Shown: positions 5,246-62,754 of the stretch, piece by piece
Position numbering within the stretch: the first letter of the stretch is position 1
Layout: each line of letters begins with the position of its first letter
From: the human T2T-CHM13v2.0 reference genome, Homo sapiens
Length of the DNA: 64,000 nt
Reading direction: 5' to 3' (one strand)
Assembly (NCBI RefSeq): GCF_009914755.1
Contig: NC_060932.1
Translations under genes and position numbers: made by a program
Notes under the pieces: generated by a model
What the model saw: the letters and a program-made list of their open reading frames with translations, nothing else
Told to the model about the DNA's origin: nothing
The model's database searches: none

Positions 5246-6349
5246 ATTACTCCTAGAATAAAATCCAAGCCCCTGACTCCATCCCTCACTGGCCTTCCCA
5301 ACCAGTTTCCTCTCTCTTTCTAATCTCAGCTGTCTTTATTTTGCCCCACAGATGCTCTCTTCAGTACCCTTCAAACAAGGCATGATGCTTCCTACCACAG
5401 GAAATTTGCATATACTGTTTCTTTGTTTTAAATCCCCTCTCTTCCCCAACAGACTTGTGCTTGTTAGTTTCTTTCTCAACATCCAAGTTTCAGCTCAAAC
5501 GTAATCTTCTCAAAGATTTTCCCAAACTCCCTAAGACAAGTACTCTATCATAATAACATACTCTGTCTTACTAGTAGCCCTTTTCAATATCTATGTATTG
5601 GCTGTGTGTCTGTGTGTCTTTAAGAGTTATACCGCCTATCTCTGCTAGAATAAAACTTTCTTGAAAGGAGCCATAATTATTTTTTAACTATTGTATCTCT
5701 CATGCCTAGAACAGTGGCCTGTTGTAGAAATAAATTCCTCTCTAGTAAGTTATGGATCATGTGGTTGCTGATAGAGACACAGCCCAAAGGCAGCCCTCCT
5801 GGATGTAACCCACAAAGCCAGTTGAAAAGCTCACAGCTATGTGTTCAATTGCATCCTCCAATACATGAATAAGTGCATCGTCTTTAAGTGCTATCATCAA
5901 GCACCCATACACTGTAAAATAAGGGGGAAAAAACTCCAATAGTAACCTACTGCCTGGAGGGAAAAGACATCCTTGCCTCAGTTTGAGTTCTCTGCTTACT
6001 GCTGTGTGAAAACTGGGTCAGGTCGTTTTTCTTCAACAGGTATCTCCTCTGAGCCTCAGGGTCATCATTTGTAAAATGTGGATAATAAGCTCACCTATCA
6101 GAGACCTTGACTCTAAAGATTATATATTTTTATGTGGTTAAGGCACAGTAGTGGCCATCTCTCACTTTCACTTATCTGAAAAACAAGAGCTTTCTCCCTT
6201 TGATTGTGAACTGGTAGGGTCCAGGGCACTGACCCTGCAAGGAAGACAGGAGCTCCATCCCCTCCTACCAACTCCCCTTTTCCCAGAAGGCCCTTCCAGG
6301 AGAATGTAAGGCGGCAGGAATCAGCAAAGAGTAGGCTTCAAAACAGGCT

Positions 6350-9700: not shown

Positions 9701-11365
9701 ATGCCAGCTTTTTTTTAATACTTCCTACATGTCAGATATTGAAATACCTTTCATAGAATAATTGATTTAAACTTCCCTCCAAACTTATAAAGAAGGCACT
9801 ATTTATGTTCCCATTAAGAGAGGGGGAAATCAACATGTCGAGATGCTTTTGAAACTTGTCCAAAGCATACGCTGGAAAGTGGGAGAGGAGGGCCCATGTC
9901 CTTCCAAGTCAGGAGTCGGACCCTTACTGTAAATGTGCTTTCCGTCTGACTGCATTGGGGCAGCTCCCACAGCAGTGGTAGAGCTGAGTCGACCCTCAGG
10001 ACACGTGGGAGCCAGAGAGTCAGGGCAGAGGGTGCAGTAGTGGCCTGGGAGGATGTCCTGGCCAGAAGGGCAACTTTGCAGGGAATGGTAGGGCACTCAG
10101 AGAACTGAAGATCCTTGAGTGTGTCTATGAAGAAGGACTTGGAGGTGTAATTCATAGAGCTGGGCCTGAAGAGGCGGCTGAGGACGGACCATGAGTGCCT
10201 GTCAGGGCATTCAGAGACCAGATGGCCACAGGCATGGAAGGAGACTCACTGTCTACAGCTTCCAAGTCTTGGCGTAGGCATGCTCAGAAAATGCACAGCA
10301 GGAAACCACGGTATTGCTGTAATCTAAAGTTTGGAGGAACTCACCTCCTTAGGTGGGCATCAGAGGAAAGGTGGCTAAAATCAACCCCAGAGAGGGAGGA
10401 AGCCCCATCTCTGTCACTCAGTCCCATGGGGTATATGTGCAAGATCATCAATTGCTTGAATGTTCCAGACACAGAGAATGTGCCTGTTAATGAGCACCCT
10501 TAAGAGGCTTCCTAACCAGAGGTCCCAGAAAAATGGATGCTAAATGGAGAAAACCCGTGAAAAGCATGCACTCAATCACACAAAGAGCTCCTGTTTTTAC
10601 CAGAGGGCTAAGAAACTCATCTAACGCTGCTAACAGACTATCTTAGACTTAAAAATAAGTCATTAAATGACGAATCGAGTAGCTTCCGGCTAATAAGGAA
10701 TGCATTCTGAATCTCATCTAGTTCTGCAGTGAAGGAATGAGCCATAGGGCAGGCCACGTATGGGGAGTGAAACACTCAGGGCTTCCCTCTCAGGAGAAAA
10801 CCTCCAGCCAGGAAATTCCTCCCACCTGCTGAGTAAGTGGCTGGGCCTCTGCAGCTGAGGCCCCAAGAACCAAAGGCAGGTGAGGCTTGGGCTTCCAGGA
10901 CACAGGAATGAAAACAGGACCACGGAAGCTGAACGATCCATCTGTAGGTTGCCACCTTTCCTTTCCAGGGGTCAGCAGACTAGAAGGTCCAGGGTTTTCT
11001 GAGCACCCTTACAGCTGGCAGCAGTTCAGGGAGGCTTCTCAAGGCCTCCGCACAGGGCCCCAGCTCAGGGTACAGAGACTGCAGGCAGCTGTTAGGGAGG
11101 ATGAGATGCTAGGGCAGCTCCTGAAGGTGGTTGGACCCCAGGTAGAGATGAGTGAGATTGTGCAGGTGGACGCTCTCCCCTGGGAGTCTAGAGAGACTCC
11201 ACTGGGAGCCAGTTCTGTCCCTGGGGCTCAGTCTTAGCTCCTGCAGATGCTTTAGTTGAAGTAGCCCCTGAGGCAGGTATGCTGGGCACCCTCCAGCATA
11301 GGACCTTGGAGAGGAATGGAAGGGGCGCCTTATGAACTGCCTCCCTCTTGCACTAGGGTGTGCCA

Positions 11366-11665
11366 TTTTATTAATAGTATTATTATTTTAAGACAGGGTC
11401 TTGCTCTGTCATCCAGGCTGGAGTGCAGTGGCATGATCATAGCTCACTCACCAGACCTACCTCCTAGACTCAAGTGATCCTCCCACCTCAGCCTCCCTAG
11501 TAGCTGGGACCCACAGCCATGTACCACTAGGCCATTTTGATTTTTTGTAGACATGGGATCTCACTATGTTGCTCAGGCTGGACCAAAACTCCTAGGCTTA
11601 AACAATCCTCTCACTTCAGCCTCCCAAAGTGCTAGGATTACAAGTGTGAGCCACTGAGCCTGGCC
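11366..11665 (-). mobile_element. AluJ
   Basis: agacagggtcttgctctgtcatccaggctggagtgcagtggcatgatcatagctcac... with AluJ diagnostic features. Confidence 0.9.
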
Positions 11666-14600
11666 TAGGCAAGTCATATCAGACACCCCTTCTCTTCTCT
11701 GGGCTTCATCTCCCTGTCCCTGCAGTAAGGAGGTGGGAAGAAATCATCCCTCAGAGCCTCTAATATTTGTCTAACTCCGTGGCTTCTCAGCCCAAGTAAT
11801 CTGGTCTGCTAGCTGGGTTAACTTGTACGTTGCCTGGTGCTATCTCAGAGTTAACCCAGCCCAGCCCTGGGGACAGTCTGGTTTTCCTGCCAAAACAGGC
11901 TGCCTCTGGCACTTCACCAGCCCACTCCAGCAGGACAGGGATTAGGGGTGAGACAAGTGAAGAGCTCGCCTGTGGGGGAGAAGTATGGGTGAGCCACAAA
12001 TATTCTCAAGATGAATATGTCAATGCAGTATTTTTTAAAAATCAGAATCAATGCAAAAAATCCATGATGAACAAAATACCAAATTTTAAGTAAAGGATCA
12101 GTGTTGCCAGTTTCTTTCTTTGCCTTCAGCACTAACCTGGCTTCACAGAGCACCCTTTATTGATCCTGTCTGGACTTAAAATTGTGTCCTTCACAGCATC
12201 TCCGATAAACCTCACTAAAACCCTTGGGGGTCAGGATTACGTCTCCCTGCTTGCAGGCAGAGAAGTCAGGTGCCTTCTTCTGGGGACTAGTAATTGACTG
12301 GACACTGGTTCTGTCTGATCCCTTACCCCACACTGTTCTTTCCAGTGGTGTCCGTCTAAGGGTGTTCATAGCCCACTGGTGGACATGGATAGACACATTT
12401 TTCAGTGTAATCATCTTATTTTCATTTTATCATCTGATTTAAAAATACAGATGTTATGCCTCATGAAGAAGTCAAATATAAATTAAGGCAAAAATCAAGG
12501 TGCTGAATTTAAAAAATGGTCAACATGTTTCACGGGCATGGCAGCCATCTGCAGTCTGAGGGCACCTTCTTGCTGTTTGATCTTGGCCAAGTGGCTTTCC
12601 CTTTCTGAACCTTTAATTGTTTCAACTACAGAATTGTCTCTAAGCCACCCTACAGCTTCAGTATTCTTTAGCTTGGGACTTATTTCTCTGTTGTCTCTCT
12701 TAATTCCTTTCAGGGAACTGTGGCTACTTAGGGGTCCCAGCAGGCTGGTCCTGGGTATGGTCTGTCCCCGACCTGAGGTCTGGCTGCTCCTGGTTGTCAC
12801 CAGAACAGTGGCAGACTTGGTAATACAAGAGGCTCAGCCCCATCCAGGACCTGGGATGATGACAGCCCAGCCTGTGTCTTCCCATCCCTCGTCTCAATTC
12901 CAGTGGATAGAGGTTAGTACAAGTCCCCTTGGAGCTTGGCCGGGGCTGGGCCTCTGTCCTCCTCATCTCCTGGTGTGTTATCTTGCAAGCAGCAGCAATT
13001 CCGGATTGGCATTCCAGTGGCACCTGCTCTTGAACTCATTTCACCTGGAGCTCTGGGCAACCCCACCATCAAGAAGAAAGAGAGCACCCAGGCTCTTCTT
13101 CCATCTCTGCACTCCCCTGCTACTGGATCTGGGGAGCATCGACTTTGAGTCTTGAATGCTTCATCTTTCAAACGCAGAAGTATCAATTCCTGCCTCAGAT
13201 GCTGGCCACGAGGGCCACATGAAACAGCGTTCCTACAGTGTCTAGGCCAATGTCTGCCCTGTAGAAGATGATTCATCATTGTCACTTCTCTTTTCTCCCC
13301 ACCTCACTCCACCCCTGCTGCTACCCAACTGTGACCTAAAAGATTCTCTTTGACACAAGCCACGTGACCTGTTCCTTTACCATGTTTCTCTTAGTAACCA
13401 CCTGGTACCCCGCATGCTGTTCTCATTATCCTCCCGAAAAACGAAGCCCCATTCCTCAGCTTTAAACTATGAATCCCCAGAAGCTAGTGCAGTTTCCCTA
13501 GGCTGACCCCATTTAAGGGTGCGTCCTGAGCCCCTGCCGTGCCTGGAACATTCTCTGCTTGAAGACCTCTCGTGGCGGGGGCTCAGGTCCTTCATGGCTG
13601 TGCTCACTGTCTCTGGGCCTTTCTGACCAAGTGTTTTCATGAATGCCACCCTGAGAACCACCATCTCCTAACTTTACTCATCCACTCCTTTCTTGGACTC
13701 TCCCTTCAGGTGTCCACATTCAGCTGTGAGGCATCTGACGTTCGCTTTTCCAAGAGGAATAGTTTTTTGTGTGTCATGGGCTAAGTCCACCCAGCATTCT
13801 CCAATGTACCCCCGTGGGCTTAAATTCCTCCTTGTGGCCCTCAGAAACCCTTGTTGTGCTATGGCAGGCAGGGAGTTGAGTGGGGTTGTGTGTCCTGATT
13901 CCTTCTGTGGGATCAAATTCCTTAAATGTATCCCTTCTGAGAGAGGGTGCATTTTGCCTTCTGCAGGCCTGCTGCATGTCCTCAAAGGATCATCTCAACA
14001 GGTTCCCGTGAAAATCAGACAACTCCTATGCCCTGAAAACAAGATTCTGAAAAACAGAACCGAAGGGTCCCCAGGGTGGAGTCCCACAGAAGGAAGAGCT
14101 CCTCATTTCCTGAATAAGATGAGGAGAGGTCCCAAATGCGGTTCAGCCTCACCCTACATCCAGTTGTGTGGGGTGGTTGGGTGCGAGAGGCCAAGCCTCA
14201 GAGACTTCATATTTCATAGCAGGATTTGACTCCTTGCTGCTGTGAAGCCTGGGGGCGGCCCTTCTCCCCTGCCGCTAAGTCCTTCCCTGTGAAGATGGGG
14301 CGAAAAGCACCTGCTCCCCAGGACTGTGGTGAGAGAAAGTGTGTGAGGCCCCAGGCACTCAGTGGGCATGCTCACTGGCAGATGATAGTATCTTTATTTC
14401 TACTGTGGAGTCTTCTATAATACCTATAAATTTTATTTATAGCTCTAATCAAATTCAATTGCCAGATTCTGTTCCATGCATGTCTGTCTCTGTATGTGTT
14501 GCCCAGAAACACTCTTTGGGAGTTAATTATAGACCAGTCTCCTAGACTGCGAGCTCCTTGAGAATGGGCCTGTATCCTGTTCACTGTCGGATCCTCAGCA

Positions 14601-20247: not shown

Positions 20248-21265
20248 TCAAGAGAAGGAAACTTGGATTTATTGAGCACCTGTTCAGGCAGGGCATGTCG
20301 CATACACACATGCACTTGATGCCATTTATTTCAGAGACAGAGCCGCCTTGGAGATACAAATTTCCCAGCTCTGGTCAGTGCCCTGGCCAACTGCCCATCA
20401 TTAGGGAAACACAAGTGGATGGTCACCACATCCACTTGTTTTATAATTAATATAATTGAAACCAACAAGAGGAACTTGAAGGGGCCTTACACAGTTTAGA
20501 AGACAAATTAACACTCAAGGGCTGCCTCTTCAACATAGGTTTTCCCATCTTTGGCCAAGACATATGATCCCACAAAGCCATTGCCAACCCACAGACATTA
20601 TTTCACTTCTGTGAGCTTAGAGCACTGAGGTGGCTGGAGTGCACCCTGAGGGCTGATTCTGTGTTTTCCAAATGCACGTCCCGTCGGGAGGTGGGAACAT
20701 TCCTCATGGTTGCAAATTCTTTCTCTTTCTGCTTCTTTACTCTCTCTGGACAGTGGTGGTGTTTGTATTATTTCTCCTGGGTGATCTCCGGGCATGACTG
20801 AGAATGAAGCCCATTGGCTCATTTTCTTAAAGTTTTTCTTTTGAAGAAAGAGGTAAATTTGCCAAGTGTCTGGTCAGGGTTTTGTAGCACCAAGAGTTTC
20901 CTTAAAATGGGCAGTTACGCGTCAGATGGGGGCTGTCAGAAGAATGAAGAAACAATCTCCTGCCCCACGAATCAAGTTTTCCCAACTTTAAAGGAGTGGA
21001 AAAGAACTCACAAAGCATCAGCATATGAAATAATAATAATAATTAACAACAACAATAATATTAATAATAATCTGACCGACCGGCAGCGTCTGTTGGATTT
21101 AATAATTTTGAGGTCTCTCAAGAAAATAAAACAAAAAGCAAACGATAAAAGAAAGAAAAAAAAAAGGAACACATGGCTGAAGTCTTTCAAGACCTCTGGC
21201 TTCCCACTGGGCTCTGAGTTCAAGTTTCAGAAATCCACTGCAGTCTTCTGGCTTTCCAGAGTCCT
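20248..21265 (-). other. COL22A1: COL22A1 3' UTR (about 1 kb; end approximate)
   Basis: Sequence after the stop has no recognisable interspersed repeat and contains a U/A-rich tract near 21030-21070. AATAAA signals on the minus strand lie at 20325-20330 and 20268-20273. The end is inferred about 20 nt past the distal signal. Confidence 0.7.
20268..20273 (-). terminator. Polyadenylation signal AATAAA (distal; a second one at 20325-20330)
   Basis: tttatt on the + strand about 1 kb downstream of the stop codon. Confidence 0.7.

Positions 21266-62754
<41,489 letters not shown>

What the first reader, a model, noticed from the sequence alone, without database searches (positions are those of the whole stretch)
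10730..11304. Decayed leucine-rich-repeat exon
After a ctctccaag| acceptor at 11305-11306, the minus strand reads QGLLQLKHLQELRLSPRDRTGSQWSLSRLPGESVHLHNLTHLYLGSNHLQELP*HLILPNSCLQSLYPELG, then frameshifted KTLDL and PSLTCLWF. LTHLYLGSNHL fits the LxxLxLxxNxL consensus exactly. The long loop after the first repeat resembles PIDD1 LRSLVLKGGQRRDTLGACLRGALTNLPAGLSGLAHLAHLDLSFNSLETLP...LLLSHNCLSELPEALG (recalled). A TAG at 11109-11111 and an apparent deletion of about 10 codons disrupt it.
Basis: partly seen in the sequence, partly recalled or inferred. Interest (0 to 1): 0.75.

Follow-up and report, generated by a model that had tools for sequence, protein, structure and literature searches.

The report
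Fossil of a lost LRR gene
A 174-base stretch just beyond the end of the human COL22A1 gene looks like the decayed remnant of a small leucine-rich-repeat gene that reptiles, birds, amphibians and many fish still carry but mammals have lost.

Summary
Only a 58-codon core (window 11103-11276, minus strand) is supported. It forms two in-phase 23-residue leucine-rich repeats, the first with a 7-residue-longer loop.

Curated Pfam LRR models score it below their cut-offs (17-19 bits against 27). An LRR profile I built from human genes without using the target scores it 30.7 bits. The next best in 104 kb of real DNA scores 7.8, and the best of 36,000 shuffled frames scores 12.0.

PIDD1 is not the closest relative. 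The closest is an uncharacterised ~266-residue LRR protein family ("LRRC30-like"), found from sharks to birds and in tunicates. None of its 77 named members is a mammal. Its first repeat carries the same loop, and the alignment has no gaps (Anolis: 24/58 identical, BLASTP E 2e-11).

In the lizard Phrynocephalus forsythii, this gene and the 3' part of COL22A1 lie two locus tags apart on one contig. The human fragment lies 9 kb past COL22A1's 3' end.

Most likely this is an unannotated unitary-pseudogene relic at its original site. The claimed frameshifted continuations, the splice acceptor and the PIDD1 affinity are not supported.

The parts
11103..11276 (-). Core relic: 58 codons forming two in-phase leucine-rich repeats, the first with a loop 7 residues longer than standard. 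It aligns without gaps to positions 44-101 of the 263-position profile of the non-mammalian 'LRRC30-like' family. T2T chr8:139,697,103-139,697,276.
   Evidence: Family profile: 27.1 bits in a long frame, 33.4 bits for P0002. BLASTP to Anolis P0116: 44.7 bits, 24/58 identities, 0 gaps. Independent human LRR profile: 30.7 bits, against a maximum of 12.0 in 36,000 shuffled frames. Single copy in the genome.
11109..11111 (-). In-frame TAG stop inside the second repeat. It aligns to the residue after the conserved proline of the family.
10983..11102 (-). Same frame continued to the next stop (TAG 10980-10982). It looks LRR-like, but homology is not shown. The best alignment needs a 9-position deletion and gains 1.0 bit.
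   Evidence: 59/400, 24/300 and 64/300 flank shuffles do as well or better.
10730..10982 (-). No support that they belong to the relic.
   Evidence: No profile hit above 0 bits in any frame. Lax alignments that chain through here are no better than shuffles.
11305..11306 (-). It is present in the sequence but nothing shows it is a splice site. The family's N-terminal 43 residues would be encoded upstream of 11276, and no trace of them was found.
   Evidence: Upstream-flank shuffles equal or beat the real sequence in 300/300 and 254/300 trials.
11366..11665 (-). Alu element with an A-rich tail, inserted about 90 bases upstream of the core, where the N-terminal coding part would lie.
   Evidence: Read directly from the sequence. 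The hub's table marks 11530-11669 as masked. The name 'Alu' is my recognition of the sequence; no tool gave it.

Best explanation
The core at 11103-11276 (minus strand) is a molecular fossil. It is what remains, at its original chromosomal site, of the mammalian copy of a small cytosolic leucine-rich-repeat gene. That gene encodes about 266 residues and is labelled inconsistently as 'LRRC30-like', 'LRRC40-like', 'lrrA-like' or 'uncharacterized'. It is still intact in cartilaginous fish, gar, bowfin, bichir, coelacanth, lungfish, amphibians, squamates, turtles, crocodilians and birds. The gene was disabled in the mammalian lineage. Only its first two repeats are still recognisable, and they carry a stop codon. 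The rest has been erased by substitutions, indels and an Alu insertion.

Shown here: the LRR signal, the family match and the absence of an intact human copy. Inferred: that the fragment does nothing today, that the gene was lost on the mammalian stem, and the synteny, which rests on one lizard.
For: 1. The LRR signal is real. A profile built from 64 three-repeat segments of 23 human LRR reading frames, found with a SHOC2 exon and not with the target, scores the target 30.7 bits. The next best of 1734 real tile-frames over 104 kb scores 7.8. In 36,000 shuffled frames the maximum is 12.0, with 57 at 4 bits or more and 16 at 6 or more. Extrapolating at one halving per bit gives about 1.5e-11 per frame, or about 4e-4 expected in the whole genome. 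That extrapolation is mine.
2. The family match. When the 150 listed library hits are ranked by best single stretch, small vertebrate proteins come first. Against 96 family proteins the median is 23.75 bits and the maximum 33.7, and 60 of 96 align without a gap across the long loop. The maximum against 23 human LRR frames is 16.5 (SHOC2), with LRRC30 at 4.7. The loop positions themselves add +7.07 bits, mainly from the shared S-P start.
3. There is no human counterpart. The bird member P0079 finds LRRC30 on chr18 as its best human match, at 38% identity and only over residues 125-312. The chr8 site is hit over residues 99-177.
4. Distribution. Of 94 rows at E <= 1e-57, 77 carry an organism name, and none is a mammal.
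5. Synteny. P0191 is 'JRQ81_010801' and P0284 is 'JRQ81_010803'. Both are from Phrynocephalus forsythii, on a contig of 127,215,305 bases. P0284's three best human matches are the last COL22A1 exons in this window, in order. The human core lies 9 kb beyond COL22A1's 3' end.
6. Tree. The family follows the species tree and the fragment falls inside amniotes. Forcing it outside tetrapods costs 5.43 lnL (p-AU 0.035). Placing it outside sauropsids is not rejected (p-AU 0.072).
7. CpG observed/expected is 0.07 in the core, against 0.22 in COL22A1 coding exons. This fits long unconstrained decay.
Against: - Curated Pfam models stay under their cut-offs: LRR_8 18.2 and 17.3 bits, LRR_4 19.4, against 27.
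- At that E-value, 5 other non-coding frames of the 264 tested gave plainly spurious family hits.
- A profile of extracellular 24-residue human LRRs gives only 10.9-14.0 bits, a level that 1 of 36,000 shuffled frames reaches.
- The family was picked after the fact from 1.84 billion proteins. Its best single stretch has a whole-library E of only about 0.004 by my scaling, so the pairwise match alone does not prove this particular family.
- A generic bacterial-type profile with a gap scores as high as the family profile (34.9 against 33.4 bits).
- Other LRR proteins also carry +7 loops at this site.
- No other part of the 263-position family profile is detectable around the core. Uniform decay would not predict this.
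- Synteny rests on one species and on the assumption that locus tags follow gene order. A search for a second species found only the query itself.
- The tree nests the fragment inside squamates on a branch of length 4.17, not as sister to sauropsids. The tested groups were named after the tree had been seen.
Confidence: 0.8

Rival explanations
1. It is a relic of some other leucine-rich-repeat gene, for example a very old duplicated or retrocopied fragment of a mammalian 23-residue-type LRR gene. On this reading, the resemblance to the non-mammalian family is the best of very many LRR proteins by luck.
For: The family was chosen after the fact from 1.84 billion proteins. A generic 23-residue LRR profile with one gap scores 34.9 bits, as much as the family profile's 33.4. 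Unrelated LRR proteins also have +7 loops at this point. Only two repeats survive, so family-specific characters are few.
Against: None of the 23 human LRR frames tested exceeds 16.5 bits in a single stretch, while the family reaches 24-34. The DNA has no paralogue in the genome, and the protein search finds nothing else below E 0.096. The best family is a vertebrate gene missing from mammals, and in a lizard it sits next to COL22A1, the human fragment's own neighbour.
Confidence: 0.1
2. It is a chance LRR-like reading of leucine-codon-rich intergenic DNA with no coding ancestry.
For: All Pfam LRR hits are below their gathering cut-offs. Hits of similar E-value to unrelated families occur in 5 other non-coding frames of 264. 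The bare 11-residue consensus is expected 0.4 times per window. Three other reading frames are also open here and GC is 0.57-0.59. The very low E-values against repeat proteins (8.7e-9 in the PDB, 8.1e-33 in the library) are sums over 9 to 17 weak repeats and are inflated.
Against: Three profiles put the core 20 or more bits above every real or shuffled control. The expected number of such hits in a shuffled genome is about 4e-4 (my extrapolation). Chance would not explain the matching loop length or the lizard synteny.
Confidence: 0.04
3. It is a decayed exon of a PIDD1-like gene (LRR plus ZU5, UPA and death domain).
For: The PIDD1 LRR exon from the same genome also has a long loop at the same place and aligns at BLASTP E 4e-5. 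LRRD1 is the fourth-best PDB entry by summed score.
Against: The PIDD1 alignment needs 16 gap positions in 87. Its best single stretch is 9.7 bits, rank 7 of 23 human frames, and LRRD1 reaches 9.8. PIDD1's loop is longer (12 extra residues rather than 7, read from L048). No ZU5 or death-domain hit occurs among the 264 frames. No chr11 hit appears when the genome is searched with the fragment.
Confidence: 0.02
4. The fragment is still used, either as part of an unannotated transcript or as a regulatory element derived from the lost gene's coding sequence. That use would explain why 174 bases stayed gap-free while the rest vanished.
For: Preservation is strikingly uneven. The core keeps 49.2 of the 50.2 alignment bits with no indel, while both flanks are indistinguishable from shuffles.
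Against: There is an in-frame stop. CpG observed/expected is 0.07, lower than the window's 0.18. RefSeq lists no gene or functional element here (hub table). Picking the best-preserved piece of an 800-base gene can by itself yield one gap-free stretch.
Confidence: 0.04

Closest known systems
'LRRC30-like' small LRR proteins of non-mammalian vertebrates. Examples: Anolis carolinensis A0A803SQX9 (P0116), Zosterops borbonicus HGM15179_016026 (P0079), Phrynocephalus forsythii JRQ81_010801 (P0191). Names are as given by sources.
   Same: The first two repeats align gap-free over 58 residues, including the long first loop that opens with S-P. Identity is 36-44%. In the lizard the gene neighbours COL22A1, as the human fragment does.
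   Different: The human sequence has a stop codon. It lacks any detectable N-terminal motif, the remaining repeats of the domain and the C-terminal cap. It is not a gene.
Human LRRC30 (chr18p, single coding exon). The gene name is my reading of the locus; chicken LRRC30 beside LAMA1 comes from a passage of PMC10035218.
   Same: It is the closest intact human relative of the family: 38% identity to P0079 over residues 125-312. It has the same 23-residue repeat type.
   Different: It does not cover the loop-bearing first repeats, and the fragment scores only 4.7 bits against it. Birds have both genes, so they are paralogues.
PIDD1 leucine-rich-repeat exon (chr11, locus L048)
   Same: It has 23-residue repeats with an enlarged loop after an early repeat.
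   Different: The loop is longer and the alignment is gapped and weaker (26.6 bits). PIDD1's other domains have no counterpart here.
Unitary pseudogenes of the human genome (Zhang et al. 2010, PMC2864566; abstract and term passages seen)
   Same: A disabled gene with no functional counterpart in the genome, and with working orthologues in other lineages.
   Different: That catalogue compares human with mouse and other mammals. This loss appears to predate all mammals sampled and survives only as a 174-base piece. Passages searched for 'leucine-rich repeat', 'chromosome 8' and '8q24' did not mention this locus.

Membership tests
Pfam LRR_8 (PF13855) and LRR_4 (PF12799) | Score at or above the curated gathering cut-off (27 bits) | tested here: not met
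   LRR_8: 18.2 bits and 17.3. LRR_4: 19.4.
Leucine-rich repeat (general) | Two or more tandem units fitting LxxLxLxxNxL in register | tested here: met
   One exact unit at 11124-11156. A preceding unit in phase has a 7-residue insertion. Custom profiles score 30-35 bits.
'LRRC30-like' vertebrate LRR family | First repeat with the 14-residue S-P loop, followed by a regular repeat at fixed spacing | tested here: met
   Gap-free alignment to profile positions 44-101. 60 of 96 members align without a gap.
'LRRC30-like' vertebrate LRR family | Conserved N-terminal motif ahead of the first repeat | tested here: not met
   No hit upstream, with or without the Alu cut out.
'LRRC30-like' vertebrate LRR family | The remaining repeats and the C-terminal cap (profile positions 102-263) | tested here: not met
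   No significant extension.
'LRRC30-like' vertebrate LRR family | Chromosomal position next to the 3' end of COL22A1 | tested here: inconclusive
   One species only. The two lizard proteins are two locus tags apart on one contig. A second species was not found.
Unitary pseudogene | Intact orthologues in other lineages and no functional counterpart in the same genome | tested here: met
Unitary pseudogene | Disabling lesions | tested here: met
   In-frame TAG. About four fifths of the coding length is unrecognisable.
Processed pseudogene (retrocopy) | A parent gene in the genome, a poly-A tract and target-site duplications | tested here: not met
   No parent was found. Poly-A tract and target-site duplications were not examined.
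PIDD1 / LRRD1 (LRR plus death domain) | ZU5, UPA and death domains downstream of the repeats | tested here: not met
   No such Pfam hit in 264 frames of 70 or more residues. Shorter frames were not scanned.

The most novel reading that the evidence does not exclude
The two-repeat fragment outlived the rest of the gene by well over 100 million years because it was taken over for another use after the gene died. That use could be a regulatory element 9 kb downstream of COL22A1 or part of an unannotated transcript. If so, it is a coding-exon-derived conserved element rather than a neutral fossil.
Probability: 0.1. Interest if true: 0.6.

Novelty: new member of a known kind. Interest (0 to 1): 0.45.

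Why it matters
- It adds an unannotated, very old gene relic to the human T2T map. RefSeq lists nothing at this site (hub table).
- It points to an uncharacterised LRR gene that is conserved from tunicates and sharks to birds. That gene is missing from all 77 named members' mammalian and teleost ranks, which makes it a clean case of lineage-specific loss with a fossil at the syntenic site.
- It is a methodological lesson. Curated Pfam cut-offs and an any-family control would have dismissed the finding as noise. A repeat-class-specific profile, ranking hits by single stretch, and a check of neighbouring genes showed it to be real.
- No paper describing it was found in four full-text searches.

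Tried and rejected
I replaced it with all 264 stop-free frames of 70 or more residues.
- That any-family control first suggested the LRR hit was noise. I dropped this reading once class-specific profiles were calibrated.
- Summed E-values against repeat proteins: rejected as evidence, because one query unit matches every repeat of the target.
Only 40 kb was obtained, so the genome-wide expectation rests on shuffles.
- The first build of the human profile used the wrong strand for some loci. It was rebuilt.
- Extending the relic downstream, upstream and across the excised Alu with a frameshift-aware alignment: not significant.
- Looking for more repeats anywhere in window 1-20300: none.
- Looking for a second species with the LRR gene beside COL22A1: the collagen query found only itself.
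- Literature: the 3 papers holding COL22A1, FAM135B and 'pseudogene' are unrelated by title and abstract. One was read in passages and lists only the two genes in cattle. Of 41 LRRC30 papers, the 15 listed say nothing on a paralogue.
- No structure or complex job was run, because neither would bear on the question.

Full report
**What is in the sequence**

An AG sits at 11306-11305 behind a pyrimidine run. There are 92 open codons, a TAG at 11109-11111, then 42 more open codons to a TAG at 10980-10982. The stretch is unique in the T2T genome: a DNA search with 10700-11340 finds only itself. Local GC is 0.57-0.59, and three other frames are also open here. An Alu with its A-rich tail occupies 11366-11665 in the same orientation, about 90 bases upstream (the name is my recognition of the sequence).

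**First tests, which pointed to noise**

- Pfam gives LRR_8 at E 0.0021 and 18.2 bits for the 92-residue frame. For the read-through (P0001) it gives LRR_4 at 19.4 and LRR_8 at 17.3 bits. All are under the 27-bit cut-offs.
- The bare consensus L..L.L..N.L occurs once in the window. The mean in 200 block shuffles is 0.405.
- I scanned all 264 stop-free frames of 70 or more residues against Pfam. The target is the only LRR hit.
- Five other non-coding frames in that scan gave plainly spurious hits at E <= 0.01: 7TMR-DISM 0.0032, DUF2489 0.0066, Ntox37 0.0039, and PT 0.0063 and 0.0012. Real COL22A1 exons scored 2e-11 to 0.0049.
- Searching the genome with the translated fragment found nothing but itself below E 0.096, and nothing on chr11 where PIDD1 lies.
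- The very low E-values against solved structures (Leptospira LIC10831, 8.7e-9) and the 1.84-billion-protein library (8.1e-33) are sums over 9 to 17 weak repeats, each with an individual E of 0.4 or worse in the alignments shown. I do not count them.

**Class-specific profiles change the picture**

The alignments showed two repeats in phase, of the 23-residue intracellular type, with 7 extra residues in the first loop. Pfam's LRR_8 models a different spacing. I built three profiles of three consecutive repeats:
- A, from the 150 listed library hits. It is circular, because those hits were selected by the target.
- B, from 13 segments of human extracellular LRR exons found with PF13855.
- C, from 64 segments of 23 human reading frames found with the SHOC2 LRR exon, not with the target.

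Results over 1734 tile-frames covering the window plus 40 kb of upstream genome:

| Profile | Target (bits) | Next best (bits) |
|---|---|---|
| A | 33.3 | 5.1 |
| B | 14.0 | 4.0 |
| C | 30.7 | 7.8 |

Results over 6000 dinucleotide shuffles of 10700-11400 in six frames, 36,000 frames in all:

| Profile | Shuffle maximum (bits) |
|---|---|
| A | 7.6 |
| B | 11.4 |
| C | 12.0 |

For C the tail falls about fourfold per 2 bits: 57 frames at 4 bits or more, 16 at 6 or more, 1 at 8 or more. Extrapolated, 30.7 bits is about 1.5e-11 per frame, or about 4e-4 expected in a genome of this composition. That is my inference, not a measured rate. Profile B is a result against: in this test the target scores only 10.9, a level that 1 of 36,000 shuffles reaches. 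No other LRR unit is seen in any frame of window 1-20300.

**Which LRR gene**

I re-ranked the 150 listed hits by best single stretch rather than by sum. Small proteins of 216-343 residues come first, aligned without gaps across the long loop.
- With one of them (P0079, a bird) as query, 94 rows come back at E <= 1e-57. Of these, 77 carry organism names.
- The named organisms are birds, turtles, crocodilians, squamates, frogs, a caecilian, coelacanth, lungfish, sharks and rays, gar, bowfin, bichir, two tunicates, an oyster and an acoel. None is a mammal and none is a teleost.
- The sources' names disagree: 'LRRC30-like', 'LRRC40-like', 'lrrA-like', 'SHOC-2-like', 'uncharacterized'.
- A profile of 33 vertebrate members (263 positions) matches window 11103-11276 to positions 44-101 without a gap, at 27.1 bits in a long frame and 33.4 bits for P0002. 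The shuffle maximum is 8.3, and the next real tile scores 5.1.
- Against 96 family proteins the best single stretch has median 23.75 and maximum 33.7 bits, and 60 of 96 are gap-free.
- Against the 23 human frames the maximum is 16.5 (SHOC2). PIDD1 scores 9.7 (rank 7), LRRD1 9.8 and LRRC30 4.7.
- BLASTP to the Anolis member gives 44.7 bits, E 2e-11, 24/58 identities and no gaps.
- BLASTP to the PIDD1 exon of this genome gives 26.6 bits and 30/87 identities with 16 gap positions.

Caveats:
- The family was chosen after the fact from a vast library.
- The circular profile A, with a gap, scores as high as the family profile (34.9 bits).
- Unrelated LRR proteins also have +7 loops at this site.
- The loop itself adds +7.07 bits, mostly from the shared S-P start.

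**No human copy, and a syntenic lizard copy**

P0079 finds LRRC30 on chr18 as its best human match, at 38% identity over residues 125-312 only. The chr8 site is hit over residues 99-177. Chicken LRRC30 proper lies beside LAMA1 (a passage of PMC10035218), so the family is a separate gene.

I then queried the library with the last COL22A1 exon from the window. This returned 'JRQ81_010803' of the lizard Phrynocephalus forsythii, on a contig of 127,215,305 bases. Its three best human matches are the last COL22A1 exons of this window, in order, at 76%, 61% and 75% identity. The same lizard's LRR family member is 'JRQ81_010801' on a contig of the same length.

If locus tags follow gene order, which is usual practice and my inference here, the LRR gene lies within two gene models of COL22A1's 3' part. 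The human fragment lies 9 kb beyond COL22A1's 3' end. A second species could not be found.

**Tree**

The family tree of 43 members follows the species tree. The human fragment (84 residues, branch length 4.17) falls inside amniotes, nested in squamates. Holding sauropsids together without it costs 3.80 lnL (p-AU 0.072, not rejected). Holding tetrapods together without it costs 5.43 lnL (p-AU 0.035). The groups follow the accepted species tree but were tested after I had seen the tree. With so long a branch this is weak support.

**How far the relic extends**

I wrote a frameshift-aware profile-to-DNA alignment. Its best path runs from profile position 44 to 125, window 11276 to 11058, with a 9-position deletion after the second repeat. 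It scores 50.2.
- The 55 codons up to the TAG score 49.2 on their own.
- Whole-region shuffles give mean 15.2, sd 1.8 and maximum 24.8 (n = 400).
- With the core held fixed and the downstream flank shuffled, 59 of 400, 24 of 300 and 64 of 300 shuffles do as well under three parameter sets.
- With the upstream flank shuffled and the Alu removed, 300 of 300 and 254 of 300 do as well.

Only the core is supported. CpG observed/expected is 0.07 in the core, 0.18 in the window and 0.22 in COL22A1 coding exons, as expected for long-unconstrained DNA.

**Verdict**

The core is most likely (0.8) an in-situ unitary-pseudogene relic of the 'LRRC30-like' family. It has no function today. The uneven preservation leaves a small chance of exaptation. 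Synteny in more species and mammalian alignments would settle the question.

No paper describing this relic turned up in four searches. Zhang et al. 2010 was checked in passages only. Supplements were not consulted.

Noticed in passing
window 10783-10797 (-), in a different frame from the core: The pentapeptide S-P-E-R-E, identical to the hallmark start of the family's long loop, occurs about 300 bases downstream of the core. By my estimate about 0.24 exact 5-residue matches to the family consensus are expected in the neighbourhood, so it is not significant. HMMER scores the surrounding match at -4.3 bits.
   Followed up: partly
window 52839-53096 (+): A short tandem repeat translates as a repeated four-residue motif and draws spurious Pfam 'PT disordered repeat' hits in two frames (E 0.0012 and 0.0063).
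   Followed up: no
protein family (not in the window): The 'LRRC30-like' family has no teleost among its 77 named members, although gar, bowfin and bichir have it. This suggests a second, independent loss in teleosts. Its names in public records are inconsistent and its function is uncharacterised.
   Followed up: no
window 5295-5369 (+): The second-best LRR-like reading in 104 kb scores 7.8 bits with the human 23-residue profile, within the range of shuffles.
   Followed up: partly
window 21011-21226 (-), 24888-25172 (+), 31373-31615 (+): Open frames in the COL22A1 3' UTR and in masked repeats give spurious Pfam hits (7TMR-DISM 0.0032, DUF2489 0.0066, Ntox37 0.0039). They show what E of about 0.003 means for translated non-coding DNA.
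   Followed up: no
G000 chr18:12,238,998-12,239,168 (-), locus L013: A strong LRR_8 match (67.2 bits) has an in-frame TAG in a 334-residue frame. It may be an LRR pseudogene or an intron read-through.
   Followed up: no
window 39859-40107 (-) and 23318-23680 (-): Genuine COL22A1 collagen exons score only 15.7 and 17.0 bits against Pfam Collagen (cut-off 27.2). Single real exons can therefore fall under curated cut-offs just as the LRR core does.
   Followed up: no
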